Positions 4,019-56,349 of a DNA stretch of 64,000 bases are shown piece after piece; the first letter of the stretch is position 1, and each line of letters opens with the position of its first letter. The notes under the pieces are model-generated. The model was not told the DNA's origin, did no database searches, and saw only the letters and a program-made list of their open reading frames with translations. A program made the translations under genes and the position numbers. This stretch comes from Minisyncoccia bacterium (GTDB lineage Bacteria > Patescibacteriota > Minisyncoccia > Phycocordibacterales > Phycocordibacteraceae): positions 7,343 through 71,342 of the forward strand of contig JBBQUV010000002.1 of assembly GCA_038212075.1 (NCBI GenBank), given 5' to 3'.

Positions 4019-5689
4019 ATGACGAGCCTTTTTGACAACGCAGCAGAAGATGCAAAGATACATCACCTTCACGAAGAAGAGGAAGAGGATGTTGCGCAAA
4101 TTCTTGCGAGTAAATATGGGATGACCTATACGGATCTTTCCGCAACCACCATTGATACCGATGCCCTGCGTCTTATTCCCGAAGAAAAATCACGGGCGGC
4201 AGAAACGCTCGCATTCAATAAAGAAGGAGTGAAGCTATCGCTTGCCATAAGGAATCCAAACAACGCTACCCTTCCCGCTCTTTTTACCGATCTTGAATCT
4301 CACGGGCACAAACTTGAAAAGTTTTTAGTTTCAACAAAAAGTTTTGAGTTGGCGTTCAAGCACTACAAAGAACTTTCTCTTGCTTCGGTGGTAAAACAGG
4401 GAGTATTAACTATTTCTCCCGATGAACTCGCGCGACTCTCAAAATCGCTTACCACGGTTACGGAACTGTCTTCGTATTTTGAAAACACACTGACCGATAA
4501 AAAAACGGGCGGCGTTTCGCGCATTTTTGAAGGAATGATGGAAGCGGCGTTTGCCATGAAGGTATCCGACATTCACTTGGAACCGGAAGAAACAAGTGTG
4601 CGCCTGCGTTTTCGTTTAGACGGTGTGCTTGAAGACGTGTTTGCCTTTACCCCCGAAACCTATCGTTCCCTGAACTCTCGTCTGAAGCTTTTGTCCGGCC
4701 TAAAGCTGAATGTGCATAACCGCGCACAGGACGGCAGGTTTAGTGTGGATATCGGCGGAACAGAGATTGAAATTCGTACGTCACTTATTCCGGGCAATTA
4801 CGGTGAGTCATTCGTGCTCCGTCTTCTTGATCCCGACAATATTCACATTGGATTTGAAAATCTTGGTATCCATCCCAAGCTCTTTGCGCGTTTGGAAAAA
4901 GAAATTCAACGTCCAAACGGCATGCTCCTTACCACCGGTCCAACGGGAAGCGGAAAAACCACAACGCTCTATGCCTTCCTTCAGAAAATTCATACATCCG
5001 ATATTAAAATTATTACCATCGAAGACCCGGTTGAATACCACTTGAACGGAATCGTGCAGACGCAAACAAACGGCAAAGACTACACCTTTGCATCAGGGCT
5101 CCGTTCTATTGTGCGCCAAGACCCGGACGTTATTATGGTGGGCGAAATCCGCGATGGTGAAACGGCTGATATCGCTATTCAAGCAGCGCTTACGGGACAC
5201 TTTGTGTTTTCCACTATTCACACCAACGATGCCGCTGGTACCTTCCCCCGTCTTGCCGACTTCGATATTGACCCAAAAGAATTTGCATCAGCAGTCACTG
5301 TCGCAATGGCACAGCGTCTGGTGCGCCGGCTCGACCAAAATGCGCGCAAACAAGTGCCGCTTGAAGGAGAAATGAAAGCGACGGTAGATAAAATTCTTGC
5401 GAGTGTGGTTGATAAGTCTTTGGTGCCACCAAAAGTGGACATGATGTGGGTGCCCGATCCAAAGGATGGTGGCACTGGCTACAAAGGGCGTGTGGGACTC
5501 TACGAAGCAATCTTTATGGACGACGAGCTCGGCACCTTCCTGCGTGATAACCCAAGCGCAAGCGATATACGAAAGCACGCGGCAAAGCAGGGCTATCTCA
5601 CTATGGTTCAAGATGGCATTATTAAAGCCTTGTCTGGCCTTACCTCTATTGAAGAAGTGCTTTCTGTTGCCGACATTCCCCGCGACTAG
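4019..5689 (+). CDS. pilB: GspE/PilB-family secretion ATPase (type II secretion / type IV pilus assembly ATPase paralog).
   Basis: 556 aa. It has an N-terminal GspE_N-like region, Walker A GPTGSGKTTTLYA, and VGEIRDGETA (Asp box/Walker B region). It is a second copy, distinct from the one at 54598..56349. Confidence 0.8.
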   Translation: MTSLFDNAAEDAKIHHLHEEEEEDVAQILASKYGMTYTDLSATTIDTDALRLIPEEKSRAAETLAFNKEGVKLSLAIRNPNNATLPALFTDLESHGHKLEKFLVSTKSFELAFKHYKELSLASVVKQGVLTISPDELARLSKSLTTVTELSSYFENTLTDKKTGGVSRIFEGMMEAAFAMKVSDIHLEPEETSVRLRFRLDGVLEDVFAFTPETYRSLNSRLKLLSGLKLNVHNRAQDGRFSVDIGGTEIEIRTSLIPGNYGESFVLRLLDPDNIHIGFENLGIHPKLFARLEKEIQRPNGMLLTTGPTGSGKTTTLYAFLQKIHTSDIKIITIEDPVEYHLNGIVQTQTNGKDYTFASGLRSIVRQDPDVIMVGEIRDGETADIAIQAALTGHFVFSTIHTNDAAGTFPRLADFDIDPKEFASAVTVAMAQRLVRRLDQNARKQVPLEGEMKATVDKILASVVDKSLVPPKVDMMWVPDPKDGGTGYKGRVGLYEAIFMDDELGTFLRDNPSASDIRKHAAKQGYLTMVQDGIIKALSGLTSIEEVLSVADIPRD

Positions 5690-8929: not shown

Positions 8930-8959
8930 TTCTTTTAGAAAATGTGATAGGTTTTTTGT

Positions 8960-9517: not shown

Positions 9518-9518
9518 T

Positions 9519-10172: not shown

Positions 10173-10188
10173 ACGGCGTTTCTCGCTA

Positions 10189-10220: not shown

Positions 10221-10230
10221 GCATTCTTTC

Positions 10231-12321: not shown

Positions 12322-12326
12322 CGCCC

Positions 12327-17513: not shown

Positions 17514-17520
17514 ATTTTTG

Positions 17521-19343: not shown

Positions 19344-19392
19344 AGATAAAGTATACCGCCTCCATGCACATCATCGAAAAGTGCACTGGGTA

Positions 19393-20217: not shown

Positions 20218-20220
20218 AGA

Positions 20221-22050: not shown

Positions 22051-22052
22051 AG

Positions 22053-23145: not shown

Positions 23146-23183
23146 TCCTTTAGTATATCAGCCCGCACACGCACATTGCGTCG

Positions 23184-23777: not shown

Positions 23778-23799
23778 TACCCACTAGAATACCACTTCT

Positions 23800-24657: not shown

Positions 24658-24662
24658 ACGTT

Positions 24663-26933: not shown

Positions 26934-26936
26934 ACG

Positions 26937-36064: not shown

Positions 36065-37747
36065 CTACTGTGTTCTTGTTGCGGAAAGACGGGCGAGAAG
36101 TACGGAGAATGCGGTTTCGTCGCGAGCAATGACCAACGTGTTTTGGTCGCGGTATCCGTACAGGAAGAGTGTTTTTCCATTTGCATCTTTGTATGCTCGC
36201 ACGTCGTGGCTGTCGACAACTTCGTCGACAAAGTGCGCGCGTCCAATGCCGGCAGGAACGAGTGGTGGAGGCAGTGGTTGTGTGGTGCTTGCTGTGGTTG
36301 TGCCGATTACCATCGCTGTTTGCGGATAGGGTGGGTAAAGTGGCGCGAAGTCGCTCCCCATAGTTGCTTCCCACGAAAGCATTCCCGCGAAGGTGCGTTC
36401 ATAGGATGTTGCGGCGAGTACAAAAAATACGCGCGTTTCATCGCCTGCGTGTACGACACCAACAGTGCTGTTATCACCGATATTGCGAAGCAAAATGTCT
36501 GGCGTGGAAAGGTTCAGTGCCTTTATGAGGGTGCCACCTCCAACGGTTGATGTTGCTGATACCGCAAGATACAACACACGCACTGTTCCAATTGGTGTTG
36601 CGGTGTTTTCTGCGTCACGAAGTGCAGTAACCAGTGAACCGCCCTGTCCGGAAATGGTCGCCGACTCATCTCCAGCAATAAGTGTTGGAGGAGCATTGGT
36701 AATGATGGAAATAGGCTGTGTTCCCGTAAAGAAGGTATAGCTGTAGTACAAAAGAAGTGACCCGCCAATAAAGAGCGCCGCTCCGCCAAGCATGTATGCA
36801 AGCCCAAGGTTTTGTTTTGGTGCTTCTACACTTTGCGGCTGTAGGGCTCCTCCCGCGTCTGCTTGCGCGGCGTACACAGAAAATCCCGATGACTGTTGCC
36901 GATTTAGTTTGTTAGAAAAATCATCGGTATAGGTTCGAAGGCGTTCTGGTTCTTGTACAGCAACTACCGGAGCGAGTTTTTGTATAGGGGCAGGCGGGGG
37001 TGTGTATACCGGCACCGCTTCTGGTTTTGGTGCGGGGAAGACTGGCGGCGGAGGGAGGTTCTGTTTTTTATATGTGTCCACTTTTGTGCGCAAGCGCGCC
37101 AACACCACTTCACGCTCCTCGACATCGTTTTTTGCTTCTTCGGGTGGTTTGAATGTCGGCGCAAACACTTCCACTGCTTCTGGTGCGCGCGGTTTTTGCC
37201 ACACGGGTGCGGTAACTGGTATATAACTTTGCTGTACCGGAGGTGTCGTCGTCGGCATGCCGAAAATAAACGCAAAGAGCTTTGACGTGAACGAAAGTTT
37301 TTTTCTTGTTGCTGGGCCTTCCCACTCTCTGGGTGTTGTTGCTTCTGTCGCGGCTAACTGTATTGGCGGTTTTGTTGGCACCGGCAAGTTTTTCTTTGTA
37401 AGTTGCGGTAGATGTGGCGCTTCAATGATTGGTTCAGAAGCGGACATCTTTGCTACGGTTTCAGATAGTGAAGGACGAAGCGGTTTAGGTGGTGGAGGCG
37501 CCGGCGCCGGTTGAATGGAAACCGGTGGTGGGGTTGGGGCAATAGGTTTTGGAGGAGCCTGTACGACAGTTTGAGGCACCGGCGCAACCACTGGTGCTGG
37601 AGCACCAGTGAGTGTTGCAACATCATCGGCGTAGGTGCGCACTACTCGTTTTGGGTTTGTGGGGAAGGTTCGTTCTTGTATTGTCACACCCACTTCACTT
37701 GCGAGTGTTTTTGGTTGGACGATGGGTTGAGTATCTGCCATGAGCAA
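36065..37747 (-). CDS. Proline-rich membrane-associated hypothetical protein.
   Basis: 560 aa. Long PxxP/AP-rich low-complexity N-terminal half, one TM segment (LGLAYMLGGAALFIGGSLLLYY) and a globular C-terminal domain. Confidence 0.45.
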   Translation of the reverse strand: MLMADTQPIVQPKTLASEVGVTIQERTFPTNPKRVVRTYADDVATLTGAPAPVVAPVPQTVVQAPPKPIAPTPPPVSIQPAPAPPPPKPLRPSLSETVAKMSASEPIIEAPHLPQLTKKNLPVPTKPPIQLAATEATTPREWEGPATRKKLSFTSKLFAFIFGMPTTTPPVQQSYIPVTAPVWQKPRAPEAVEVFAPTFKPPEEAKNDVEEREVVLARLRTKVDTYKKQNLPPPPVFPAPKPEAVPVYTPPPAPIQKLAPVVAVQEPERLRTYTDDFSNKLNRQQSSGFSVYAAQADAGGALQPQSVEAPKQNLGLAYMLGGAALFIGGSLLLYYSYTFFTGTQPISIITNAPPTLIAGDESATISGQGGSLVTALRDAENTATPIGTVRVLYLAVSATSTVGGGTLIKALNLSTPDILLRNIGDNSTVGVVHAGDETRVFFVLAATSYERTFAGMLSWEATMGSDFAPLYPPYPQTAMVIGTTTASTTQPLPPPLVPAGIGRAHFVDEVVDSHDVRAYKDANGKTLFLYGYRDQNTLVIARDETAFSVLLARLSATRTQ

Positions 37748-41155: not shown

Positions 41156-41182
41156 AAAAACCCCGCGAAAGCGGGGTTTTTC
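41156..41182. terminator. Bidirectional hairpin terminator (AAAAACCCCGC-GAAA-GCGGGGTTTTT) between rpmB and the convergent ComEC-MBL gene.
   Basis: Read from the sequence. Confidence 0.65.
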
Positions 41183-42056
41183 ATTTGAGTACCACGCTCG
41201 TACCGTCGCTCACAAAATCCAGTGTGCCGCGGTCTATTGTGGAGTAGATGGTCGCTCCTTCGTTTTTAATACGAGAGATGGCTTCTGGAGCAGGATGCCC
41301 GTAGGAGTTATGGGCTCCCGCTGAAATAGCGACAACTGATGGGTGTACTGCAGAAAGCCACGCGTCACTACTTGAGTTCTTGGAACCGTGATGCCCTGCT
41401 TTCAACACGTCACTTTGTAAATTGCCGTCCTTACCATCTAAACGCACAAGCCAACCCTCCTGTTCGGAAGGTAAGTCACCCGTGAGCATAAAAGACGTAG
41501 ACCCGTACACCACATGAAGAACCACAGAGCCGCTGTTTGTTTCCATTTTTGAAACATCGCGATCCGGGTAGAGCACATCGGCATACGCTCCCCCACCCAA
41601 ATTGAGCCGCATACCACGTCGCGCTATAACACGCGTAATACCTGGCTCTGCTTTAGCCGCCGCAAGTACCGCAGTAGTTGCCGCGGTGGTGTTTGGAATA
41701 CCAGGCTCCATAAAGTACGAAACGGCATAGCGGCTAAATACCGAAGGTAGCCCGCCAATGTGGTCTTTATCAGGATGTGTTTCAACCAGCATATCTATAG
41801 AGTGGTCAAAAAGACCAAGTTCCCTTCCAAGCGGCGTGAGCACCACACTACTTGGTCCGCCATCCACGAGTACCTGCACGCCTGTCGGGCTTTCTATCAA
41901 AATGGAATCCCCTTGCCCAATATCAAGTATGGAAACATGCAGTTCGTGGGGGTGGGCAGAAAAAAGTGCCGAAAACACCGCAATATTCAGCCATACCAAA
42001 AATGCAAAAATAAGATGGGGTATGTACGGGCGCATAGACTCTATAGTACTTGGCAC
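41181..42056 (-). CDS. ComEC/Rec2-type metallo-beta-lactamase domain protein, encoded apart from the ComEC channel gene.
   Basis: N-terminal TM, ILDIGQGDSILIE and HPDKDH (the HxHxDH-like MBL motif). The domain is typical of ComEC C-termini. Confidence 0.7.
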   Translation of the reverse strand: MPSTIESMRPYIPHLIFAFLVWLNIAVFSALFSAHPHELHVSILDIGQGDSILIESPTGVQVLVDGGPSSVVLTPLGRELGLFDHSIDMLVETHPDKDHIGGLPSVFSRYAVSYFMEPGIPNTTAATTAVLAAAKAEPGITRVIARRGMRLNLGGGAYADVLYPDRDVSKMETNSGSVVLHVVYGSTSFMLTGDLPSEQEGWLVRLDGKDGNLQSDVLKAGHHGSKNSSSDAWLSAVHPSVVAISAGAHNSYGHPAPEAISRIKNEGATIYSTIDRGTLDFVSDGTSVVLK

Positions 42057-42126
42057 ATAGGGGATATTTGCCTTTATATAATCTATATGTTATAATCATG
42101 TGGGGTAATACGCCGCGCGTGCGGTA

Positions 42127-42339
42127 ATGGCGGAGACCAACATGGAGTTTGCAAGAAGAATTGATGTCCTCCGGCGAGGACGAAGACCTAGAGGTAGGCC
42201 TTTGTTGTGGATAGACGCAAAAACGCGCACCGCAATGAAGGTCTTGTCCCCTCGGGAACAAGGTCTCGCCGAAGCACTTATACTCGTGACGGCGCAAACA
42301 CGCGCCGAACACGAGAAACCGACTTCGCTCGTCAATTAA
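42127..42339 (+). CDS. Possible small arginine-rich protein, or part of an ncRNA, in a 355-nt intergenic region.
   Basis: Upstream lie a TATAAT-like element and an AT-rich tract. A GGAG precedes an internal ATG (MEFARR...). The bidirectional terminator at about 42358-42388 follows. No homology evidence. Confidence 0.25.
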   Translation: MAETNMEFARRIDVLRRGRRPRGRPLLWIDAKTRTAMKVLSPREQGLAEALILVTAQTRAEHEKPTSLVN

Positions 42340-42357
42340 GTCGACGAGCAGAAATCG

Positions 42358-42388
42358 GAAAAGGGTATCCTCGCGGATACCCTTTTTC
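42358..42388. terminator. Bidirectional hairpin terminator (AAAAGGGTATCC-TCGC-GGATACCCTTTTT).
   Basis: Read from the sequence. It serves the convergent minus-strand gene 42413..42901. Confidence 0.6.
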
Positions 42389-42412
42389 GCATTTCACTAC
42401 CGTGTGCGTCGT

Positions 42413-42901
42413 TTACATTGAAACGTGCGCTTCCCCACCAGCTCCCTTCTCTTTTCCGATAGCGTCGCGTGCCTCAACGCTGTTGCCAGCATTGGCTATA
42501 AGGGCACCGCTTGCGTCAACAATAGGTACTTTCTCCCGTACGCTCTCGGTAAACCCGAGTGCATTTTTGATATTGGTATCAAATTCAGGAGAAGCGACCA
42601 TTTCCATCGTAAGCGGCTGACCTTTCAATTCTGCATCCTTTATGACAAAGGCAACGGCACGAGTAACCTCACTCTCGGTGAACTTGCCACCTGCCGCTTC
42701 GTGAACCTTTTCTGCTACGGCGTTTGAAACCGCGCTTGGCTCTACGTCATCTGACTCCGCCCGAGCTCCTCCTGTAAACATTTTGTTGAGATTGAACATA
42801 TTTTTATAGTTGAGGTGTACAGGGGTAGTATCGCACGAGGCATACCACCTGCAAGTCGGGTTTTGCATAGGTGCTGTGGTAGAGTTCTGGACATATGACA
42901 T
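42413..42901 (-). CDS. Hypothetical protein, possibly Asp23/Gls24-like.
   Basis: The 162-aa ORF overlaps the sodA start by a few nt. The resemblance to the Asp23 family is weak, and the true start may be internal (MFNLNKMF...). Confidence 0.3.
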   Translation of the reverse strand: MSYVQNSTTAPMQNPTCRWYASCDTTPVHLNYKNMFNLNKMFTGGARAESDDVEPSAVSNAVAEKVHEAAGGKFTESEVTRAVAFVIKDAELKGQPLTMEMVASPEFDTNIKNALGFTESVREKVPIVDASGALIANAGNSVEARDAIGKEKGAGGEAHVSM

Positions 42902-43488
42902 ATGAAAAACGAACGTTTACCCTTCCGGAATTGAAGGGCATCTCAAAGAAGCAGATAGACGTGCATCTTGCGCTATACGAAGGCTACGTGAAGCATGTGA
43001 ATTTGATTATGGAGAAAATTGCCGCGATGAAAGAAACAGATGCCGAAGGTAATGCGTACGCTATTGCTGAAGTGCGTCGTCGTCTTGGATTTGAGTTCAA
43101 TGGCATGCGTATGCATGAATATTACTTTGAACAATTTGAGGGTGAAAAAAGTGGAAACCCAGAATCGGGGTTGGCAAAAGCGGCTACAGAAAAATATGGA
43201 AGTGGTGAAAACTTTTTGAAGCACATTCGCGAAGTTTCTGGTTCTCGCGGTATCGGCTGGGTGGTGGTGTATTACGACAGTGTTGGGAAACAGCTTCATA
43301 CGGCGTTTGTGAATGATCACGAACTTGGCACGCTCGCCACGCTTCCCGTTATTCTCGCGCTCGATTTGTGGGAGCATGCGTATATGGTTGATTACGTTCC
43401 TGCAGAAAAAAAGAATTACATTGATGCATTTTTTGAAAATCTTAATTGGAGCGTGTGCGAAGCACGCTTTGAAAAAGCAGTTGCATAA
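42895..43488 (+). CDS. sodA: Fe/Mn superoxide dismutase.
   Basis: Metal ligands and DLWEHAYMVDY (the DxWEHAYY signature), 197 aa. Confidence 0.9.
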   Translation: MTYEKRTFTLPELKGISKKQIDVHLALYEGYVKHVNLIMEKIAAMKETDAEGNAYAIAEVRRRLGFEFNGMRMHEYYFEQFEGEKSGNPESGLAKAATEKYGSGENFLKHIREVSGSRGIGWVVVYYDSVGKQLHTAFVNDHELGTLATLPVILALDLWEHAYMVDYVPAEKKNYIDAFFENLNWSVCEARFEKAVA

Positions 43489-43500
43489 CGAATAAAAAGT

Positions 43501-43544
43501 CAGAACATAAAAAGAGTCGCTCACGCGACTCTTTTTATGTTCTG
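43501..43544. terminator. Bidirectional terminator hairpin (CAGAACATAAAAAGAGTCGC-TCAC-GCGACTCTTTTTATGTTCTG). Its right arm overlaps the comEC stop codon.
   Basis: 20-bp stem read from the sequence. Confidence 0.65.
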
Positions 43545-45013
43545 ATTCTCAACGTGCGTGGTTTTGGCAGTCTCTGCAACCGTACGACCCATCGCCACAG
43601 TAGTGCATACATAAGTACGACAAAGAAAAATGAAAACGCGGGGATGATGACGTGTGCAAACGGTAACTGTGCTGAATATATCCCAACCGAAATGATGTAC
43701 GAAAGAAACATAAACGCAGGTATACCGATAAACGGTGCAATCCATGGAATCACCATGCCAACAATCCCAGCGATACATGACAAGAGCATCGTGAAAGGAA
43801 TGACCGGGAGCACCAAAATATTTGCCGGAAGTGAAACGAGTGAAAAATTTCCCGTAAGGTATACGAGAAATGGAAGTACCGCAATTTGTGCGGCAAGGGT
43901 GGTGGCGACGATTTCACGCAGGAACATATTTTTTATAAACAACAAACGCACTTCAACAAGCGGCGTGCCAATGATAAGTCCGAGCGTCGCAAGAAATGAT
44001 AGCTCAAACCCGGGGTCATATACTAGCGAAAACGGATTCCACATAAGCATAACCAACAGCACAAAAAAGAGCGCACGCAGTGCGTTGTACGTGCGGCCAC
44101 TTGCGCGTGCGTAAAGCGCCAGACACGCCATAAGTCCTGCGCGCAGTGCAGATGTTCCGGAACCGGCCGCAACAACAAAGAGCAAGATACTTATTCCTGC
44201 AGATGAAAGTGCGATACGTTTTGGCAAAAATGACAATCCGCGAAGTACTGCTTCGGCGATAATCATGACGTTGTATCCGGAAAGCACCACAATTTGTATG
44301 AGACCGGAAATAGTAAAGGCGTTCACGAGTTCTTTTCCGAGCCCTTGTTTGCCGCCAGTAAGAAGTCCTTCAGCAAGTGCGGCGGAAGGTTCTGGTAACG
44401 CGTTTTCAATACCGTTTGTGAATATATGTTTCGCACGATAGAGCATACCGATGGCACGCGTAAAAAAACCGGACGGTGGCGCAGTGCTTTGTATGTGCGC
44501 GTCTTTAATAAGCGCGAACACGCCGTCTTTCGCCAAAAAGGTATCGTAGGCAAAGGTTCGTCCACCATCGGTTGCAAACGGTTCCGGTTTTAAAAAGGTG
44601 CCCGACACCGTTATAGCTTCGCCATACGATACGCTTGGATAGAGTGGTGCCACGGCAAGAATGAGAGACGTGGCGTCGCCGTACGTAACCATTACTGTGA
44701 CACGTTGGCTCGTCTCACGAATGTCGGGATCAACGGCTATGGTGCCGTGAAGTAGTACGTTGGCACCAACAAGTGGTAGGAATGGGCGAGGCATTGTTTT
44801 TTGCGCAAGCTCCGTGCGAGCAAGTCCAAGACTGAATGCAATGAGAGCGAGCGCGCAGGTTGCAAAGAGTTTTTCTGGGTGTGCGTACCAAAGAATAAAA
44901 AAAGTTCCTGATAACACTGCCACAAACAGAACGCTTCCCCACCCAAGAGCGAGTGTGGAACACGCAATAATACCAAGCGCAAAACCAAGTACAGAAATAA
45001 AGAAGTAGTCCAT
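43535..45013 (-). CDS. comEC: ComEC/Rec2 DNA internalization channel (DUF4131 plus competence domain). It has no attached MBL domain.
   Basis: 492 aa and multi-TM. Competence-domain features (GLLTGGKQGL, SGLIQIVVLSGYNVMII). Confidence 0.75.
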   Translation of the reverse strand: MDYFFISVLGFALGIIACSTLALGWGSVLFVAVLSGTFFILWYAHPEKLFATCALALIAFSLGLARTELAQKTMPRPFLPLVGANVLLHGTIAVDPDIRETSQRVTVMVTYGDATSLILAVAPLYPSVSYGEAITVSGTFLKPEPFATDGGRTFAYDTFLAKDGVFALIKDAHIQSTAPPSGFFTRAIGMLYRAKHIFTNGIENALPEPSAALAEGLLTGGKQGLGKELVNAFTISGLIQIVVLSGYNVMIIAEAVLRGLSFLPKRIALSSAGISILLFVVAAGSGTSALRAGLMACLALYARASGRTYNALRALFFVLLVMLMWNPFSLVYDPGFELSFLATLGLIIGTPLVEVRLLFIKNMFLREIVATTLAAQIAVLPFLVYLTGNFSLVSLPANILVLPVIPFTMLLSCIAGIVGMVIPWIAPFIGIPAFMFLSYIISVGIYSAQLPFAHVIIPAFSFFFVVLMYALLWRWVVRLQRLPKPRTLRIRT

Positions 45014-49612: not shown

Positions 49613-51022
49613 CTATTTTTGGTGCCAGTCCATAAGCTCGTAATCGCTTGCAACAGCAGGAGTAAAAGCAGGCGGATTGCTTGCCATGTTGCGATCAAAG
49701 GAATCTATACGGGTTTGGTATCCCCCATCACTTCCCCCACACCCGTTTATCCATCTGGTACCAGTGCGTTTATTTGAAACGGTTGTGCCAAGAATAGTGA
49801 GCGTTCCTCGCGGTTCGTAGGTTCCAGGACAAGAATAGAGGTTTCGACCAAAAGCACCGCTTTGCGCGATGAAAATACCGTCCAAGGTCGTATTATTTGG
49901 GGCGTTCGGTCCGACAAGTACATCATCTTGTGTGATAAGTGTAAGGCCGGCAGTACCGTCATACGCACTGTAAACAATGTTGTTTGGGATAATAGTGTCC
50001 GCGGAACCGCTTGCGCTGGTTACGTCCGCAACTACAACAGTTATTTTTTTGGTGATAGTGCCTTCAATCCACGCACGGTTTTGAACGAAAATAAGACCGC
50101 AATTAGATGGAAGCGCATACGTTCCCACTAAGGACTCGGTCTTGATTATAGAATTATCGGTTCCACCTCCCGCAGTTCCGTCTACAAAGGCAACCACCGT
50201 CGGTGCAGTAATTTTTGTAACGTGCTTTACCGTCACCGTACCGTCTGCGTTGAAGATGAGATGGTATCCGCCTTGCGTGTTTGAGGGGTTTCCATCGCCC
50301 CAATACTTTCCGCTTGCTTGGGCAGTTGTCTTTAGATTCGTAAAGTCTGCAGATATCGCACTAAAGTCTACTTGCGGTGTCGGGAAATCCCATAGGTTGG
50401 CGTTACTCCCTGTGCCAAACACGCCGTTTTTTGTCGCTGTCGGGGAACAGCCGAATGACGATGTGCATGACCACGTTGCAAGCGAGCTTGAAACCGGTGA
50501 ATTAGCAGTGCCGTCCATACGCACTCCGCCGTTTGAATGATACGGTCCTTGAATTACACGATCTGCGCCTGCCCAGACGCTGTCATTTAATATATAGGAA
50601 TAGGTTCCGACCGAAGGGCGTGCATAGCGTGCGTAAACTGTTTTTGATGCGAGTGAGTTATCTGACGGCGTGCCCACTGACGTAATGTCTATGGACGTGG
50701 TTTGACCACATGAAGTATTGCCGGCCACCGTAAGCGAAATGGTTCCGGCGGTGCCACCCTCTGGATCGGCATAAGGAAGTGAATAGGGTCCCGCGTGCCC
50801 AGTACCGTTTGTGGTATCGCCCGGATAGTGTCCGAGAAACCACTTGTAGTACTCAATACCTGCCTCAGCGATGGTAAAGCCTTCACTTTGTGCATATTTC
50901 ACTGCCTGCAGACGATTCTGAATCAGTACATAGCTACAGAGTGCGCCGATAAGGCCAACAAAGATGGCACCAAACACAAGAGCGAGCAACATAATAAATC
51001 CTTTGCGGGGGTGACGCTTCAT
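49613..51022 (-). CDS. Large pilin-like or pseudopilin-like protein with a prepilin-type hydrophobic N-terminus but no Glu at +5.
   Basis: The likely start is MKRHPRKGFIMLLALVFGAIFVGL (a KGF cleavage-like site). About 470 aa. It is Thr/Ser/Gly-rich and probably beta-rich. Confidence 0.45.
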   Translation of the reverse strand: MKRHPRKGFIMLLALVFGAIFVGLIGALCSYVLIQNRLQAVKYAQSEGFTIAEAGIEYYKWFLGHYPGDTTNGTGHAGPYSLPYADPEGGTAGTISLTVAGNTSCGQTTSIDITSVGTPSDNSLASKTVYARYARPSVGTYSYILNDSVWAGADRVIQGPYHSNGGVRMDGTANSPVSSSLATWSCTSSFGCSPTATKNGVFGTGSNANLWDFPTPQVDFSAISADFTNLKTTAQASGKYWGDGNPSNTQGGYHLIFNADGTVTVKHVTKITAPTVVAFVDGTAGGGTDNSIIKTESLVGTYALPSNCGLIFVQNRAWIEGTITKKITVVVADVTSASGSADTIIPNNIVYSAYDGTAGLTLITQDDVLVGPNAPNNTTLDGIFIAQSGAFGRNLYSCPGTYEPRGTLTILGTTVSNKRTGTRWINGCGGSDGGYQTRIDSFDRNMASNPPAFTPAVASDYELMDWHQK

Positions 51023-51023
51023 A

Positions 51024-51629
51024 CTAGTTGGTGCGCAGATTGCGGAGTGTTGCGGTGCCAATAAGGGTGAACGTGAGAGGTGCACGACGAGTGTCTACGT
51101 CTACACCAATCACCACAGACACGGACGCTATTTTGCTTATGTCTACAGGGACTGGCAATTCTGTCCCGGTGTTGTCGTAGTAATGGAAGAGTGGTGTTGA
51201 AGTGCCGTTTTGCACATACGATGCAATTGTAGTGAGTACTTCGGTTTGCCCGCCGTAGCTTGGTGGGTTGCCTCCCGGGTTTGTGACACCGCGTGTCAGG
51301 GTTGTTGAGGCAAGATAGTAATGAATTTGTTCCACTACTCCGTCATTGTCGACATCAGCATAAAACGTAATAGTGGACGTTGCGGCAGTATGTATAGGAT
51401 ACGAGCCGTCGGCGCCATACGTTGATTCGCGCAAGTTTTCAAGCGCAAATTCAACACCGCGTCGCGCGTTGTCGGTCGCAGTGGATTGTTGGAAGATAAA
51501 CGTGTTTGATTTGTACACAAACGTAATCATACTGGTGAGTGCAATGCTCACAACAGCAACAAGAGAGATGACAACCATCATCTCAACGAGCGTCATGCCT
51601 TTTTTGGATTTAGTTGAGTACTGTTGCAT
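51024..51629 (-). CDS. Type IV pilin or pseudopilin (class III signal peptide).
   Basis: SKKG|MTLVEMMVVISLVAVV has Glu at +5 after the Gly cleavage site. The likely start is MQQYSTKSKKG at about 51629. Confidence 0.7.
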   Translation of the reverse strand: MQQYSTKSKKGMTLVEMMVVISLVAVVSIALTSMITFVYKSNTFIFQQSTATDNARRGVEFALENLRESTYGADGSYPIHTAATSTITFYADVDNDGVVEQIHYYLASTTLTRGVTNPGGNPPSYGGQTEVLTTIASYVQNGTSTPLFHYYDNTGTELPVPVDISKIASVSVVIGVDVDTRRAPLTFTLIGTATLRNLRTN

Positions 51630-53310
51630 AGGTAGTGAATCCGGACACTGATACACCACTATACGAAGCGGTGAGTGCTCCAGATGTGGCAGAAATGGTA
51701 TATGCCGCACTTGCGGTGAGACTTCCGAAATACGCATTTCCACAACTCGTTGTTGTTACGGTTTGTGAAAATCCGGTACGAGACAGGGTGACCGAAGCTC
51801 CTGCAAGTGGTTGACCCGCGGCATTTTTTGCGGAAACGAGTAATGCGTTCGTGCTTGAAGGCCCTAGAATAAGCCGGTTGTCGTTACTCGAGCCGGCAAG
51901 GATGTTGTACGGCGCCGTTCCGCACGCATCGGTAATATCGTATCCGGAAACAGACACCGCATAACTATCCCACTCAAGCGTTTGTGTTGTTGACGCCGCC
52001 GCACCCGTTGTGGAATTAACGGTGGTTTTATAGATAGGGGCGCCCGCACCGGTAGAACCGATAGTTTTCGCGCCTTGGAGAGTGAACGAAACATTCGCAA
52101 GGGGGAGAGGGCCATGGGTATAAGCAATCCCCCAGTCGAGCACCGAGGGTGCTGATACCGCCGCCGCGGTTACTTCCGCCTTAAGAGCAAGCGCCGGATA
52201 GGTTGACGTAGAAATTCCTGAAAGATCTACAGGGAATGAGCTAAAGCCAGTACTGTTACCAGAAAGTGCAGAATCAGGAATGAGTGTTCCATTCCCGTCA
52301 GTAATATGAACCACGGCACTTGTGCCGGCAGGTGTTGATAGTGTTGAAGACGCATTCACCCACGTCGCAATATAAGAAGGTGCAACCGCAGTGGAGCGCC
52401 CGCTCCCAGGAGAAAGAAAACCACCAGCCCCATCTGAAGTATTGGTCAGCGCACCGCCCGACACGTTCGTATTAATTAGCGCAGTAGTGTTTGATGCGTC
52501 GGTGAAGGTATCCGTAAATGCATTGGACGCAATAGGAGAAAACGTGCGAAGGATAAGTGTGGCGAGCGCGTCTATGGCAAAGGTAGATGACGTGGTTACA
52601 TTTTGTACCACCGTGAGGTGTCCGGGGCTTGGATTTTGGTTGTTTGAATCGCGGTCGTAGGTTTGTGCAGTGGAATATCCGGACTTAGTCACACTTACGT
52701 GGTAATTCGTCGATGTCGCCGCTCCCGGTAAATACACCGTTCCTAAAGCATCTGAAAAAGTCGTGAGGTTTACACTCGGTGTTGTACTTGGATTGGTGAA
52801 CGTAACTGATGCACCTGCTACCGCCGCACCAACTGCGTTCACAATAATCGCCTTGAGTGTTCCCCCACCAGTAGTGGTTTCAATAGAAGGGGGCGTAATG
52901 TTTGAAATGATAGAAAACTGATGCGTCATGTTGTGCGCCGTAAACCCCACACTCACCTTTGCCCGTTTGTAGTCGGTGGTAATGCCGTTTGAGTCTGCTC
53001 CCCCTGTTCCGTCTGCGGGGTCGTCGTAGTAATCAATAAAAGTACGCATGGTGTAATTTATGGAGTCTTCAGTTGTCGTTGCGTTTTGTACGATGGTGCC
53101 GGCAGGAATACCACCCAGCGTACCGACTGAGTCATAGGGAAGCGAACGAATATACTCCATCTGGCTATTTGCTATTGCGGTTGCCGCCGCCGTTTCGGTG
53201 GCGAGAGTAGAAATTTGTTCCGAAGCACGCAGGAGTCCAAAAATGGCGGTAAATATCGTGGCGGCAATAGCTGAACCGACGAGTACGTCGATGAGAGTCA
53301 TACCGCGCAT
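51610..53310 (-). CDS. Large minor-pilin-like protein (prepilin N-terminus plus a Thr/Ser-rich domain of about 530 aa).
   Basis: MRG|MTLIDVLVGSAIAATIF has Asp at +5. The likely start is near 53310. Thr/Ser/Ala-rich and probably beta-rich. Confidence 0.55.
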   Translation of the reverse strand: MRGMTLIDVLVGSAIAATIFTAIFGLLRASEQISTLATETAAATAIANSQMEYIRSLPYDSVGTLGGIPAGTIVQNATTTEDSINYTMRTFIDYYDDPADGTGGADSNGITTDYKRAKVSVGFTAHNMTHQFSIISNITPPSIETTTGGGTLKAIIVNAVGAAVAGASVTFTNPSTTPSVNLTTFSDALGTVYLPGAATSTNYHVSVTKSGYSTAQTYDRDSNNQNPSPGHLTVVQNVTTSSTFAIDALATLILRTFSPIASNAFTDTFTDASNTTALINTNVSGGALTNTSDGAGGFLSPGSGRSTAVAPSYIATWVNASSTLSTPAGTSAVVHITDGNGTLIPDSALSGNSTGFSSFPVDLSGISTSTYPALALKAEVTAAAVSAPSVLDWGIAYTHGPLPLANVSFTLQGAKTIGSTGAGAPIYKTTVNSTTGAAASTTQTLEWDSYAVSVSGYDITDACGTAPYNILAGSSNDNRLILGPSSTNALLVSAKNAAGQPLAGASVTLSRTGFSQTVTTTSCGNAYFGSLTASAAYTISATSGALTASYSGVSVSGFTTYATVLN

Positions 53311-53380
53311 CGTCGGCGCCGGAAGGTGCATACCAAAATAATAACGCACGTGCGCCAAGAATGTATCGCGAGCCGTGCGT

Positions 53381-54595
53381 CTAACCGATTTTACTTGTGA
53401 GTGAATAGATAGGACCAATCATAGAAATCGCAAAGACACCGACAGCAAGACCGATGATGAGCATCAATACCGGTTCAATGATAGTAGAAAGGTCCTTTGT
53501 TCGATCTTCCACATCGTTTTCATAGTATTCCGCAACCTGCCCGAGCATTTCTGCAACCTTTCCTGTTTCTTCACCCACAGCAATCATATCGGAAAACAAA
53601 ATTGGATAGAGTTTTGGCTTCTCGGCAAACGCGGCAGACAAAGGATCACCCTTCCTGACACGATTTTCTGCGTCGGAAATAACGGCTGCAAAGGTGCCGT
53701 TACCCACCACTTCCCCAGCAATGCTGAGCGTAGTGAGCATTTCAACACCCGAAGAAAGAAGCGACGCCATGGTGCGTGCGGCACGCGCGCTATACGTTTC
53801 TTTCATAAGCGCTCCAATGACCGGCAAATGGAGAGCGATCTTCATAAAAATAAGGTTACCGGTGTTGGAACGAACGGCTGAGTAGACGGCACCCACAAAT
53901 GCAAGAAGGCCGATGATAACAATAAGTATGTTATTCACCATAAAGTTCGACATCCCAAGAATGATGCGTGTAGAAAGTGGAAGCTGTACGCCAAGCGCCG
54001 TAAATGTGCTTGCGAGTGTCGGCACTACGTAAATAAGCATTAATATGCCGATGACCACAATGGCAAACAGAATGATTGCGGGATAAATCATGGCACCACG
54101 TACTTTTTTAGTGAGGGCACTTGAGCGTTCCATTTGTTTTGCCACTACCTTGAGTGCGTCAGCAAGTGTTCCGGACTCTTCGCCAGATTTTGTCATTGCG
54201 ATAAACAGCTTTGAAAATACTTTTTTGTGTGCCGCAAGCGCTTCGTGGAAAGATGCTCCGCCTTTAATTTTGTTTCCAAGATCAATAACGATATTTTTCA
54301 ACACTTTGTTTCCTGATTGTCGTTCAGTTACCGAAAGTGCACGAGAGAGGGTGAGGCCCGCTGAAAGCATCGCCGAGAGATTTTTGGTGAACGTAATCAT
54401 CTCGTCGAGTTTTACGCCGGTGCCAATAGTAATGTTGGCGAGCTTTCCAAGAGAAAACGTTGACTGCTCTTCAATTGCCGATACTGTCTCCCCTCCTTTT
54501 TCTGCCTCGGCATATACCGCAAACCGCGATGGTGCATCCACAACACGCTTTTCTTCACTACCGTCTTCTTTTCTGAAGGTAACGCGAAAGTGCAT
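53381..54595 (-). CDS. pilC: Type IV pilus assembly platform protein PilC (GspF family).
   Basis: 404 aa with two GspF repeats and three TM segments. Confidence 0.85.
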   Translation of the reverse strand: MHFRVTFRKEDGSEEKRVVDAPSRFAVYAEAEKGGETVSAIEEQSTFSLGKLANITIGTGVKLDEMITFTKNLSAMLSAGLTLSRALSVTERQSGNKVLKNIVIDLGNKIKGGASFHEALAAHKKVFSKLFIAMTKSGEESGTLADALKVVAKQMERSSALTKKVRGAMIYPAIILFAIVVIGILMLIYVVPTLASTFTALGVQLPLSTRIILGMSNFMVNNILIVIIGLLAFVGAVYSAVRSNTGNLIFMKIALHLPVIGALMKETYSARAARTMASLLSSGVEMLTTLSIAGEVVGNGTFAAVISDAENRVRKGDPLSAAFAEKPKLYPILFSDMIAVGEETGKVAEMLGQVAEYYENDVEDRTKDLSTIIEPVLMLIIGLAVGVFAISMIGPIYSLTSKIG

Positions 54596-54597
54596 AC

Positions 54598-56349
54598 TTA
54601 TTCAGTTACTGCGCGAAGCACTTCCTCAATGGAGGTTGTGCCGCGTGCCGCTTTGTACAGCCCATCTTCAAGCATGGTGAGCATCCCCTCCTTTCGTGCT
54701 TGTGCTTCGACCGCTTCACTCGACGCTCCCTTCAAAATGAGATCGCGAATGGTTGAAGTGACCTTTAACACTTCGTGGATACCAAGACGACCAGAGTACC
54801 CTTCTTCGCATTCTGGTGATGGTTTTGGACGATAAAACGGAATAGCATCAATTTTTGTGCTTGCTTTAGCAAGTTTTTCGTCCACAAGTGCTTTCATTAC
54901 TGAATCAAAGCGGTCAGCAGATGCAATTTTATCCCGCGCGGCTTTAGTGAGTTCATATTTCTCTTTTTCATTGCAAAGCACGCGTACCAAACGCTGACCC
55001 ACAATTACTTTCAAGGTGGAAACAAGCAGAAACGGCTCCACGCCCATATCAATAAGACGCGGAATGGCACCGGCGGCGCTGTTGGTGTGAATAGTAGAAA
55101 GCACCAAGTGGCCGGTGAGTGCGGCGTTGATGGCAAGCGCCGCCGTTTCGCCGTCACGAATCTCTCCCACCATCACCACGTTCGGGTCTTGGCGCAAAAG
55201 TGAACGCAATCCGTTTGCAAACGTAAATCCAATTGCCGGGTTCACTTGTGTTTGGTTCACTCGTTTCATTTGGTATTCGATCGGATCTTCTACAGTTGAA
55301 ATGTTTACATCTGGCGTATTCAAAATATCGAGCACGGTGTACAGGGTGGTTGTTTTTCCGGAACCGGTTGGTCCGGAAATCAAAATCAGTCCCGTCGTTT
55401 GTTTGGTTGCTTCATGGATACGCTCTGCAGATTCGCCGTGAAGCCCAAGAGCATCAAGCGTGAATCCTTCTCCTGTCTCGCGCAACAAACGCATCACGAT
55501 TTTTTCTCCGTAATAGGTTGGCAGAAGCGAAACACGGAATGACACCTTGTCACTTTCCGTTTCCATTTTGAAACGACCGTCTTGCGGCAACCGTTTTTCA
55601 TCCAGTTTCAAATTGGCGAGCACTTTGATGCGCGCAACAATACCGCCCGCCGCCGCCCGCGGCAGAGTCATTGCGTCATGGAGAATGCCGTCAATGCGGT
55701 AGCGCACGAGCACTTGGTCTTCTAGAGCTTCAATATGAATATCGGACGCTTTTTGTATGATGGCGTGGCGCAGAAGGGTGTCCACAATGCGAACAATCGG
55801 CAAATCTTCCGCCATTTTCTTAAGTTCCTCCCCTGTCACTTCTTTGTCGCCCGACTCTTTCACCACCGTGAGTTTACCGGCTTCAGTGGTGATAAGGTCG
55901 CCAAACTCTTCTTTCAGTGATTTTTGGTATTGAATGAGTCCGTCTTTAACAGAATCTTCGTCAGTAAGGCGGGGGAGAATTTTCAATCCCGTTTTTTTGC
56001 GTACTGAATCGATAGCGGGTAAATCTTCCGTATCAAGCATGGCAACCTCAACCTCCGTCTCGGTTTTTTTATACGCAATAATGGAGTGGACGCGCGCAAT
56101 CGGTTCCGGAATGAGCGATAGTACGTCAAACGGAATTTTTTTATCTTTCAGGTTTACGTACGGAATACCAAGCACATAGGCTTTAATACGCCGCAAGGCA
56201 TCGGTTGAAAGCGCACCTGAAGATACGAGAATGTCGCCCACCGATTGTTTTCGGGTTTTGGCAACGTCGACCGCCGCGTCAACGTCTTTACGTGACACGA
56301 GTCCGGAATCAAGGATGAATTCCTTCAGTTCTGATTCTGAAACCTTCAT
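54598..56349 (-). CDS. pilB: Type IV pilus assembly ATPase PilB (GspE family).
   Basis: 583 aa. N-terminal T2SSE_N domain, Walker A GPTGSGKTTTLYT and VGEIRDGETA. Confidence 0.9.
   Translation of the reverse strand: MKVSESELKEFILDSGLVSRKDVDAAVDVAKTRKQSVGDILVSSGALSTDALRRIKAYVLGIPYVNLKDKKIPFDVLSLIPEPIARVHSIIAYKKTETEVEVAMLDTEDLPAIDSVRKKTGLKILPRLTDEDSVKDGLIQYQKSLKEEFGDLITTEAGKLTVVKESGDKEVTGEELKKMAEDLPIVRIVDTLLRHAIIQKASDIHIEALEDQVLVRYRIDGILHDAMTLPRAAAGGIVARIKVLANLKLDEKRLPQDGRFKMETESDKVSFRVSLLPTYYGEKIVMRLLRETGEGFTLDALGLHGESAERIHEATKQTTGLILISGPTGSGKTTTLYTVLDILNTPDVNISTVEDPIEYQMKRVNQTQVNPAIGFTFANGLRSLLRQDPNVVMVGEIRDGETAALAINAALTGHLVLSTIHTNSAAGAIPRLIDMGVEPFLLVSTLKVIVGQRLVRVLCNEKEKYELTKAARDKIASADRFDSVMKALVDEKLAKASTKIDAIPFYRPKPSPECEEGYSGRLGIHEVLKVTSTIRDLILKGASSEAVEAQARKEGMLTMLEDGLYKAARGTTSIEEVLRAVTE

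What the first reader, a model, noticed from the sequence alone, without database searches (positions are those of the whole stretch)
49613..56349. Type IV pilus cluster with two unusually large pilin-like proteins, plus a second PilB paralog at 4019..5689
pilB-pilC are followed by three genes with prepilin-type N-termini. Two of them encode proteins of about 565 and 470 aa, whereas major pilins are usually 130-180 aa. Proteins this large, Thr/Ser-rich with a prepilin N-terminus, look like tip adhesins or minor pilins. One of them (49613..51022) lacks the conserved Glu at +5. No prepilin peptidase, pilT, or pilM/N/O lies in the cluster. A second GspE/PilB-family ATPase sits alone next to nucleotide house-cleaning genes. 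It could energise a different filament, for instance the competence pilus given the ComEC genes nearby.
Basis: partly seen in the sequence, partly recalled or inferred. Interest (0 to 1): 0.5.

Follow-up and report, generated by a model that had tools for sequence, protein, structure and literature searches.

The report
Type IV pilus tip-pilin operon
This is a conserved type IV pilus operon of an ultrasmall (Patescibacteria/CPR) bacterium: a motor, a membrane platform and three tip "minor pilins", two enlarged by added binding domains, one with the predicted architecture of a known DNA-binding tip pilin of Thermus. It is a known kind of system, not a new one.

Summary
On the minus strand lie pilB (54598-56349), pilC (53381-54595) and three pilin-like genes: A (51610-53310, 566 aa), B (51024-51629, 201 aa) and C (49613-51022, 469 aa). 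A second PilB-family ATPase sits at 4019-5689.

The large proteins are best read as tip minor pilins, not odd major pilins.
- A is predicted to be a GspI/PilV-like pilin module plus four beta-sandwich modules. It has Asp, not Glu, at +5.
- B is a canonical prepilin.
- C has Gly at -1 and no acidic +5 residue. Its model has a GspK-like pilin module and an ice-binding-protein-like beta-solenoid. Its best solved match is Thermus ComZ, a proposed tip DNA receptor.

The order pilB-pilC-A-B-C-tpiA-pgk…recJ-RNaseH-comEC recurs in all 80 related genomes fetched, wherever the contig reaches; 303 species representatives encode a C relative. A, B and C are about as conserved as TpiA and Pgk.

PilB2 is an old, clade-conserved orphan paralog, 36% identical to PilB1. 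It is PilB/GspE-like, not ComGA- or PilT-like, and its role is unresolved.

Verdict: a new member of a known kind (modular tip pilins; large PilX-type pilins in CPR). Interest is modest. Whether the tip binds DNA is untested.

The parts
54598..56349 (-). pilB1: PilB/GspE-type pilus extension ATPase (583 aa)
   Evidence: Pfam T2SSE 8e-126 plus MshEN. NCBIfam PilB 523 bits and GspE 520 bits, both below the equivalog cut-offs. Best solved relatives are PilB/PilF at 382-388 bits; PilT scores about 115. Walker A, Walker B, Asp box and His box are intact, and only 2 Cys are present. Orthologs have a median identity of 78% in 68 related loci.
53381..54595 (-). pilC: PilC/GspF-type inner-membrane platform (404 aa)
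   Evidence: Pfam T2SSF 9e-58 in two stretches. NCBIfam GspF 296 bits and PilC models 248-257 bits, all below cut-offs.
51610..53310 (-). A: GspI/PilV-class modular minor pilin (566 aa). N-terminus MRG|MTLID, followed by four beta-sandwich modules.
51024..51629 (-). B: canonical prepilin-type minor pilin (201 aa), N-terminus KKG|MTLVE. The GspJ/PilW-like role is inferred.
   Evidence: Pfam N_methyl 27.8 bits against a cut-off of 21.2; TIGR02532 24.5 bits against 16.3. 32 of 34 orthologs hit N_methyl. Among orthologs, -1 is Gly in 61 and Ala in 14; the +5 Glu was required by the pattern used for that count, and is independently invariant in the 34-sequence alignment. The globular part has no database match. 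Its start overlaps the end of A by 20 nt.
49613..51022 (-). C: GspK/PilX-class tip pilin with a beta-solenoid, ComZ-like (469 aa). N-terminus MKRHPRKG|FIMLL, no acidic +5.
4019..5689 (+). pilB2: orphan, clade-conserved PilB/GspE-family ATPase paralog (556 aa)
   Evidence: T2SSE 2e-103, MshEN borderline at 23.2 bits against 23.1. GspE 425, PilB 417, ComGA 238 and PilT 172 bits. 36% identical to PilB1. Orthologs 60-78% identical. The context polA-tsaE | pilB2 | ruvB-yebC-ruvC-PBP-dnaN-dnaA recurs in two relatives. No Cys; catalytic boxes intact.
43535..45013 (-). comEC (Competence plus DUF4131 domains). Context only: the DNA-import channel, 4.6 kb downstream of C.
   Evidence: Pfam Competence 3.6e-41 and DUF4131. 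Its position after recJ and RNase H is conserved in relatives.

Best explanation
The cluster encodes the motor (PilB1), the membrane platform (PilC) and the priming/tip complex of a type IV pilus in a Paceibacteria-type CPR bacterium. No outer-membrane secretin gene was seen in the window.

A, B and C are minor pilins that fill the roles of GspI/PilV, GspJ/PilW and GspK/PilX, in that gene order.

Proposed mechanism:
1. A prepilin peptidase encoded elsewhere cleaves each protein after the conserved Gly.
2. The three N-terminal helices associate in the membrane on PilC.
3. C has no acidic +5 residue, so it has nothing to neutralise the N-terminal amine of a subunit above it. It therefore takes the topmost position.
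4. PilB1-driven polymerisation of a major pilin encoded elsewhere pushes this cap outwards.
5. The tip then displays C's beta-solenoid and A's stalk of Ig-like and lectin-like modules as binding surfaces.

The ligand is either DNA, by analogy with Thermus ComZ and for import through the nearby ComEC, or a surface glycan of a host cell.

What is shown: gene content and order, N-terminal motifs, clade-wide conservation and predicted folds. What is inferred: processing, formation of a heterotrimer, tip location and the ligand.

PilB2 is a separate, ancient, catalytically intact PilB-family motor whose partner filament is unknown.
For: - pilB and pilC domain assignments.
- Three adjacent genes with class-III-like N-termini and no other convincing one in 64 kb.
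- B passes the N_methyl models.
- C's leader with Gly at -1 is conserved in 78 of 78 orthologs, including species that lack the internal Met annotated as the start. Its +5 residue is never acidic.
- Distant C-family members hit Pfam PilX_N.
- The order pilB-pilC-A-B-C recurs in all 80 related loci wherever the contig allows, and 303 GTDB species representatives encode a C relative.
- The overlapping or abutting A/B/C reading frames fit co-translated, roughly stoichiometric partners.
- GAST content is 51%, 37% and 41% for A, B and C against 28% for PilB, as reported for exported pilins in TM7x (PMC11623550).
- Precedents: ComZ-PilA2 as a tip DNA receptor (PMC6561018); large PilX pilins with a non-canonical signal in Saccharibacteria; modular pilins (PMC8179133).
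Against: - A and C fail the sequence models for the prepilin N-terminus, and a PilFind-type rule would reject both, since neither has Glu5.
- B's fold was not predicted, so its GspJ/PilW role rests only on gene order and size.
- No prepilin peptidase, major pilin, PilT or PilMNO was seen in the window or within 10 kb of the cluster in relatives. A complete machine is therefore assumed, not shown.
- The C-family profile finds no solved relative, ComZ included, by sequence. The resemblance is one of fold and architecture only.
- C's most conserved segment (about residues 150-220) is the least confident part of the model.
- The whole neighbourhood is syntenic, so the position of comEC may carry no functional meaning.
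Confidence: 0.78

Rival explanations
1. The operon is a self-contained, ComG-like competence pseudopilus: ATPase, platform, B as the major subunit, and A and C as accessory pilins. It would be dedicated to DNA uptake through ComEC.
For: - The layout of ATPase, platform and then pilins mirrors comGA-GB-GC…GG.
- B is the only canonical prepilin in the window.
- No other pilin gene lies within 10 kb in 79 of 80 relatives.
- C resembles the competence pilin ComZ.
- recJ and comEC follow in conserved order.
Against: - PilB1 and PilC score far better on the PilB/GspE and GspF/PilC models than on ComGA (256 bits, cut-off 300) or ComGB (144 bits, cut-off 240).
- B's start overlaps A's end, with no intergenic promoter region, which is unlike a highly expressed major pilin.
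- B's weak N-terminal matches are mostly to minor-pilin models (ComGE 25, GspH 20 and ComGF 18 members, against ComGC 6 and GspG 5).
- At about 190 mature residues, B is large for a ComGC-type subunit.
Confidence: 0.12
2. A and C are not pilins. They are surface adhesins held in the membrane by an uncleaved N-terminal signal-anchor helix, and merely share an operon with the pilus motor.
For: - Neither passes the N_methyl models.
- C has no acidic +5 residue and A has Asp.
- NCBI annotates C from an internal Met, without the leader.
- Sources name A an 'autotransporter adhesin' or 'carboxypeptidase regulatory-like' protein.
- A's C-terminal modules resemble Gram-positive surface adhesins.
Against: - In both models the helix is followed by a pilin-type beta-sheet whose best pilin-class matches are specifically GspI (A) and GspK (C).
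- The basic leader with Gly at -1 is conserved in 78 of 78 C orthologs, and in all 65 A orthologs that matched a pattern itself requiring that Gly (65 of 76 scanned; alignment A2 has Arg2 and Gly3 nearly invariant).
- The acidic +5 in A is held invariant, with a single Asp-to-Glu swap, which an anchor helix would not need.
- Linkage to pilB-pilC and to canonical B is constant.
- GspK, ComZ and TM7x PilX show the same 'non-canonical' N-terminus.
Confidence: 0.08
3. PilB2 powers a second, distinct filament, as PilB2 does for the thin T4P-2 pili of Saccharibacteria, using pilins encoded elsewhere. This concerns PilB2 only and does not compete with the explanations of the cluster.
For: - TM7x has two PilB motors for two filaments (PMC11623550).
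- PilB2 is ancient, conserved (60-78% identity) and has intact catalytic boxes.
- It diverges from PilB1 (36% identity) and lacks the extreme N-terminal segment that in PilB1 weakly matches the MshE-type c-di-GMP-binding motif.
Against: - No pilin, platform or other pilus gene lies near PilB2 in the window or in two relatives.
- No second pilC was seen.
- It could equally be a second motor on the same PilC platform, or have another role.
- The competence-pilus (ComGA) version of the idea has no support.
Confidence: 0.4

Closest known systems
Thermus thermophilus ComZ with PilA1-3 (competence-pilus tip DNA receptor; PDB 6QVI/6QVF; PMC6561018)
   Same: - Both lack a canonical PilD-site prediction and both are about 470-520 aa.
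- Both sit beside a pilin with a GspI-like fold: PilA2 in Thermus, A here.
   Different: - Whether the solenoid is inserted before the last strand, as in ComZ, could not be checked without coordinates.
- DNA binding is untested.
- The partner here (A) is itself a five-module protein.
- The host lineage is a CPR bacterium; no outer-membrane secretin gene was seen in the window.
T2SS GspI-GspJ-GspK and T4aP PilV-PilW-PilX core minor-pilin tip complexes (PDB 3CI0, 5VTM)
   Same: - Three consecutive genes in I-J-K order.
- A's pilin module matches GspI/XcpV/EpsI and C's matches GspK/XcpX.
- The K-class member lacks Glu5.
- Distant C relatives hit Pfam PilX_N.
   Different: - None of the three reaches any curated GspI, GspJ, GspK or PilV cut-off.
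- C carries a beta-solenoid instead of GspK's alpha-domain.
- A carries about 430 extra residues.
- A has Asp5.
- There is no GspH/FimU-like fourth pilin and no PilY1 in the cluster.
Saccharibacteria (TM7x) T4P-1/T4P-2 loci with PilV, PilW, large PilX, and PilB1/PilB2 (PMC11623550)
   Same: - It is also a CPR lineage.
- It has two PilB paralogs.
- Its minor pilins resemble pseudopilins.
- Its largest pilin (PilX) has an accessory domain, no predicted PilD signal and high GAST content, and is proposed as a tip adhesin.
   Different: - The accessory domains differ: a jelly roll and a beta-propeller there, a beta-solenoid here.
- Here the V-class pilin is also large.
- PilB2 here is an orphan, not part of a second pilus locus.
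- Orthology between the two lineages' proteins was not tested.
Modular pilins of monoderm T4P (Streptococcus sanguinis PilA/PilB/PilC; PMC8179133)
   Same: - A small pilin module carries grafted binding modules, presumably shown at the tip.
- Two modular pilins and one small one share a system.
- The paper lists CPR examples.
   Different: - The modules differ (vWA and ConA-like lectin there).
- The S. sanguinis modular pilins have canonical class III signals with Glu5.

Membership tests
Type IV pilin (class III signal peptide) | Short basic leader ending in Gly at -1, followed by about 20 hydrophobic residues | tested here: met
   The N-termini are A MRG|MTLIDVLVGSAIAATIFTAIFGLL, B MQQYSTKSKKG|MTLVEMMVVISLVAVVSIAL and C MKRHPRKG|FIMLLALVFGAIFVGLIGAL. 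In orthologs, -1 is Gly in 78 of 78 for C, and Gly in 61 and Ala in 14 for B. For A the pattern used required Gly (65 of 76 scanned matched), and alignment A2 has Gly3 nearly invariant.
Type IV pilin (class III signal peptide) | Glu at +5 | tested here: not met
   B has Glu5, invariant in the 34-sequence alignment. A has Asp5, invariant in 54 homologs, with Glu in one further ortholog. C has Leu, and its orthologs have L, T, V, M or I, never an acidic residue. The feature is therefore met by B only.
Type IV pilin (class III signal peptide) | Match to Pfam N_methyl (PF07963) or TIGR02532 above the cut-off | tested here: not met
   B is met: 27.8 bits against 21.2, and 24.5 against 16.3. A and C have no hit at E<=0.1.
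Type IV pilin (class III signal peptide) | Long N-terminal helix packed on an antiparallel beta-sheet (lollipop fold) | tested here: met
   [not shown]
Type IV pilin (class III signal peptide) | Cleavage and N-methylation by a prepilin peptidase, and incorporation into a filament | not testable with these tools
   No peptidase gene is in the window. This needs biochemistry.
GspK/PilX-class tip minor pilin | Pilin module with a GspK-like topology and no Glu5 | tested here: met
   [not shown]
GspK/PilX-class tip minor pilin | Sequence match to PilX_N (PF14341) or T2SS_GspK models | tested here: inconclusive
   The window protein has no hit. 7 of 33 distant family members hit PilX_N, with a best E-value of 2.2e-4.
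ComZ-like tip pilin | GspK-like pilin module combined with an ice-binding-protein-like beta-solenoid | tested here: met
   [not shown]
ComZ-like tip pilin | Detectable sequence homology to ComZ | tested here: not met
   The profile of 55 C homologs searched against all PDB sequences at E<=10 returns only three chance-level hits, none of them ComZ.
ComZ-like tip pilin | DNA binding, and binding to a GspI-like partner pilin | not testable with these tools
   Only the presence of a GspI-like pilin (A) in the same operon is shown.
GspI/PilV-class minor pilin (protein A) | GspI-type fold | tested here: met
   [not shown]
GspI/PilV-class minor pilin (protein A) | Score above the TIGR01707 gspI or PilV model cut-off | tested here: not met
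   gspI scores 15.9 bits against a cut-off of 44.35, over the N-terminal 50 residues only.
GspJ/PilW-class minor pilin (protein B) | GspJ-type two-domain fold or a sequence match | not tested
The only sequence hits are weak and N-terminal (gspJ E=0.037). The assignment rests on gene order and size.
PilB/GspE extension ATPase (PilB1 and PilB2) | T2SSE domain with Walker A, Asp box, Walker B and His box, plus an N-terminal MshEN/GSPII_E_N domain | tested here: met
   MshEN scores 43.6 bits in PilB1 and a borderline 23.2 against 23.1 in PilB2.
PilB/GspE extension ATPase (PilB1 and PilB2) | NCBIfam equivalog cut-off and the tetracysteine zinc motif | tested here: not met
   PilB1 scores 523 bits and PilB2 417 bits against a cut-off of 675. 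They contain 2 and 0 Cys respectively.
ComGA or PilT (alternative identities for PilB2) | Best match and cut-off on the ComGA or PilT models | tested here: not met
   ComGA scores 238 bits (cut-off 300) and PilT 172 (cut-off 319), both far below the GspE and PilB scores of 425 and 417. Solved PilT chains score about 105-120 bits against 280-306 for PilB/GspE.

The most novel reading that the evidence does not exclude
In Paceibacteria-type CPR bacteria the type IV pilus tip is a fixed, clade-wide device: a ComZ-like beta-solenoid pilin plus a five-module GspI-like pilin, both as conserved as glycolytic enzymes. Its conserved ligand would be extracellular DNA, or another invariant polymer. The pilus would then be mainly a DNA and nucleotide scavenging harpoon feeding ComEC, not a host-specific adhesin. 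That would make ComZ-type tip DNA receptors widespread rather than peculiar to Thermus.
Probability: 0.25. Interest if true: 0.6.

Novelty: new member of a known kind. Interest (0 to 1): 0.33.

Why it matters
CPR bacteria have small genomes and are thought to lack many biosynthetic pathways (abstracts). All cultivated members live attached to host cells, and type IV pili and ComEC are thought to be central to that lifestyle (PMC11623550; PMC10936435).

This analysis gives names and testable roles to three proteins now annotated as 'hypothetical', 'carboxypeptidase regulatory-like' or 'autotransporter adhesin'. A and C each have more than 1000 homologs, and at least 303 species encode a C relative.

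It also points to a concrete candidate for the pilus-tip ligand-binding unit. The ComZ-like architecture and the housekeeping-level conservation of the tip proteins make one hypothesis directly testable with recombinant protein: that the tip binds DNA rather than a variable host receptor.

Beyond that, the cluster is an ordinary pilus operon.

Tried and rejected
- Profiles of the A and C families against PDB sequences gave no meaningful hits. The B profile hit only the N-terminal helix of Geobacter and other pilins.
- The Foldseek afdb50 library was not installed, so I could not ask how widespread the ComZ-like architecture is among predicted structures.
- I tried to extend beyond the window by looking up edge proteins and the exact PilB2 record, but none is on record. 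pilD, pilT, pilMNO and the major pilin of this genome could therefore not be located.
- The promoter and terminator scan of 47.5-56.7 kb was uninformative. Promoter-like sites were at the shuffled expectation. Terminator-like hairpins were above expectation but mostly lie inside genes; one weak hairpin sits between pilC and A.
- A true phylogeny of the two ATPases against reference PilB, GspE, ComGA and PilT clades was not built, because no reference sequences were available offline. Model bit scores and ortholog identities were used as a proxy.
- I considered the internal Met annotated by NCBI as the true start of C and rejected it. Several orthologs lack that Met, while the upstream leader is conserved.
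- Papers holding both 'ComZ' and 'Patescibacteria' were all irrelevant.

Full report
**Source and setting.** The window (48.6% G+C) comes from a Patescibacteria/CPR genome of the Paceibacteria/Kaiserbacteria type. Exact copies of three of its proteins lie on a 133-kb NCBI contig. Their homologs are named Candidatus Paceibacterota, Parcubacteria, Minisyncoccia or Kaiserbacteria by their sources.

**Observation.** Five co-directional, tightly packed genes lie on the minus strand.
- pilB1, 54598-56349, 583 aa.
- pilC, 53381-54595, 404 aa.
- A, 51610-53310, 566 aa. An alternative start at 53331 gives 573 aa.
- B, 51024-51629, 201 aa.
- C, 49613-51022, 469 aa.

tpiA and pgk follow. pilB1 and pilC are unambiguous: T2SSE 8e-126 with MshEN, and T2SSF 9e-58. 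The best NCBIfam models are PilB/GspE and GspF/PilC, all below the equivalog cut-offs.

The three downstream proteins start MRG|MTLID…, KKG|MTLVE… and RKG|FIMLL…. A six-frame motif scan picked up these three and a few other matches that lack a basic leader ending in Gly, so I read no other prepilin in the 64 kb.

**Are the N-termini real prepilin signals?**
- B passes Pfam N_methyl and TIGR02532, as do 32 of 34 orthologs. Among its orthologs, -1 is Gly in 61 and Ala in 14, and Glu5 is invariant in the 34-sequence alignment.
- A and C fail those models, but their N-termini are under clear constraint.
- In A, Asp at +5 is invariant in 54 homologs. The single exception found has Glu. That behaviour fits the functional acidic +5 position.
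- In C, the source annotation starts at an internal Met (459 aa). Across 63 orthologous ORFs, however, an upstream Met, a basic leader of 5-8 residues and [RK]G are conserved. Several species lack the internal Met altogether.
- Gly at -1 is present in 78 of 78 C orthologs, and +5 is L, T, V, M or I, never acidic.

**Predicted structures.** Both large proteins gave confident AlphaFold2 models from alignments of about 55 homologs: C at pLDDT 82.6 and pTM 0.80, and A at pLDDT 84.5.

This is the combination described for ComZ. ComZ is a GspK-like pseudopilin domain with an ice-binding-protein-like beta-solenoid inserted in it. PilFind does not predict it as a PilD substrate. It binds the GspI-like pilin PilA2 and DNA, and is proposed to cap the competence pilus (PMC6561018).

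Foldseek finds the same bead-on-a-string Ig-like arrangement as in Gram-positive surface pilins and adhesins.

Sequence evidence supports the class of C independently. The family has 1012 clusters at 50% identity. Among its more distant members, 7 of 33 match Pfam PilX_N, and some carry extra fn3, beta-propeller, CBM60 or LamG modules.

**Interpretation.** A, B and C fill the GspI/PilV, GspJ/PilW and GspK/PilX positions in that gene order. This is the conserved minor-pilin complex that primes assembly and ends up at the tip of type IV filaments. That role is established knowledge from the GspIJK structure 3CI0 and is reviewed in PMC7248040 (listed).

The absence of Glu5 in C is the hallmark of the topmost subunit, not an anomaly. 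The large sizes reflect grafted modules, as in the 'modular pilins' shown to be widespread, with CPR examples (PMC8179133). They also recall the large PilX1 and PilX2 of Saccharibacteria, which have accessory domains, no predicted PilD signal and high GAST content (PMC11623550). GAST here is 51%, 37% and 41% for A, B and C against 28% for PilB.

B's assignment to the J/W class is inferred only from position and size.

**Conservation.** A scan of one genome per GTDB species found 303 species encoding a C relative. In the 80 loci fetched, the order is constant wherever the contig reaches: nusA | pilB1-pilC-A-B-C-tpiA-pgk | HIT | recJ-RNaseH-comEC-(sod)-MBL.

Median identity to the window proteins is as follows.

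| Protein | Median identity |
|---|---|
| PilB1 | 78% |
| PilC | 63% |
| A | 53% |
| B | 50% |
| C | 57% |
| TpiA | 60% |
| Pgk | 61% |
| ComEC | 48% |

The tip proteins are thus as conserved as housekeeping enzymes. My inference is that this fits a conserved ligand or a core assembly role better than a fast-evolving host-specific adhesin. No other pilin gene lies within 10 kb in 79 of 80 loci. The major pilin, prepilin peptidase, PilT and PilMNO must be elsewhere. None was found among the 36 window proteins scanned.

**PilB2 (4019-5689).**
- It is a full-length PilB/GspE-type ATPase with intact Walker A, Asp box, Walker B and His box and no cysteines. PilB1 has 2 of the 4 zinc-site Cys.
- It is 36% identical to PilB1, while its own orthologs are 60-78% identical across the clade. 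The duplication is therefore old.
- It scores 425 bits on the GspE model, 417 on PilB, 238 on ComGA (cut-off 300) and 172 on PilT. Solved PilB, PilF and GspE chains score 279-306 bits, and PilT chains about 105-120.
- Its neighbourhood recurs in two relatives and contains no pilus gene: polA-tsaE | pilB2 | ruvB-yebC-ruvC-PBP1-dnaN-dnaA. The Ham1 adjacency is not conserved.
- comEC lies next to the pilB1 cluster, not next to PilB2.
- The competence-pilus idea for PilB2 is therefore unsupported, and its partner filament remains unknown. The Saccharibacteria precedent of two motors for two filaments is the best available analogy.

**Mechanism proposed.**
1. A peptidase encoded elsewhere cleaves after Gly at -1.
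2. A, B and C assemble through their N-terminal helices on PilC, with C on top.
3. PilB1 drives polymerisation of a major pilin beneath them.
4. The tip displays C's solenoid and A's Ig-like and lectin-like stalk.
5. The ligand is DNA (by analogy with ComZ, with ComEC nearby) or a host glycan (through A's CBM-like module).

Gene content, motifs, conservation and predicted folds are shown. Processing, complex formation, tip location and ligand are inferred.

**Verdict.** This is a clade-conserved, ordinary pilus operon whose large pilins belong to known classes, so it is a new member of a known kind.

The modestly new points are these:
- An architectural counterpart of ComZ, detectable by predicted fold but not by sequence, in at least 303 Paceibacteria species.
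- A five-module GspI-class pilin with an Asp5 signature.
- Housekeeping-level conservation of the tip proteins.

None of the ten listed papers (of eleven) holding both 'ComZ' and 'Patescibacteria' was relevant.

Noticed in passing
window 16251-29401, minus strand: A run of about 12 co-directional genes looks like a conjugation or type IV secretion-like system. It includes a VirB4/TraG-P-loop-type ATPase (20221-22050; P-loop_TraG 2e-25, weak CagE_TrbE_VirB), a PrgI-family protein (22717-23145), a 756-aa protein (24663-26933) with no Pfam hit, and several proteins with no Pfam match.
   Followed up: partly
window 41181-45013: ComEC appears to be split. The Competence and DUF4131 domains are at 43535-45013 and a separate metallo-beta-lactamase gene is at 41181-42056, with a gene at 42895-43488 (my BLAST label 'SodFe'; its ortholog in L001 carries Sod_Fe_C) and a small ORF between them. 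The same order (ComEC, sod on the opposite strand, MBL) recurs in many relatives.
   Followed up: partly
window 50993-51022 (start of C): The public annotation of this protein (P0001, 459 aa) starts at an internal Met and drops the conserved basic leader and Gly at -1. Many database homologs of 459-463 aa (98% query coverage) may be truncated in the same way; only P0001's start was checked.
   Followed up: yes
B orthologs in L009-L082 (e.g. L011:9381-9995, L015:9397-9996): About one in five B orthologs (14 of 75) have Ala instead of Gly at the -1 cleavage position (…R/K-A|F-T-L-x-E). This is uncommon for prepilin peptidase substrates.
   Followed up: partly
L061:7805-9391: One A ortholog has Glu at +5 (RG|MTLIE), where the 54 aligned family members have Asp.
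   Followed up: no
window 56170-56349 (PilB1 residues 1-60): The PilB1 N-terminus weakly matches the MshE-type c-di-GMP-binding motif (NF053729, 21.9 bits against a cut-off of 38) and NfrB-type models. PilB2 lacks this segment. Whether these bacteria use c-di-GMP was not examined.
   Followed up: no
L001:2404-6650 (relative on the 742-kb contig): In this relative five genes are inserted between pilB and pilC: an ion channel, a GSP_synth-domain protein, a DUF350 protein and two small ORFs. pilB-pilC adjacency is therefore not obligatory.
   Followed up: no
window 4019-14975: PilB2 lies about 7-9 kb from dnaN (12327-13427) and dnaA (13629-14975), assigned here by position from the orthologous genes in L003 and L004, so it is probably near the replication origin. 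The block polA-tsaE-pilB2-ruvB-yebC-ruvC-PBP-dnaN-dnaA recurs in two relatives.
   Followed up: partly
window 36065-37747 and 6565-7554, minus strand: Two sizeable ORFs (560 aa and 329 aa) have no Pfam match at all.
   Followed up: no
C residues about 150-220 (window about 50363-50575): The most conserved stretch of the C family (GPYHSNGG[IV]RMDG…W.CTSSFGC, with invariant His, Asn, Asp and Cys) is the least confidently modelled part of the protein, with pLDDT 51-70. It may be a binding or interface loop.
   Followed up: no
distant C-family proteins P0403, P0405, P0415, P0463, P0472 and others: Some distant family members are 600-900 aa. Across the 33 scanned, single members carry fn3, beta-propeller (DUF5122), CBM60 or LamG-like modules; which protein carries which was listed only for P0403 (fn3). 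This suggests that the same tip-pilin scaffold is re-used with different binding modules.
   Followed up: partly
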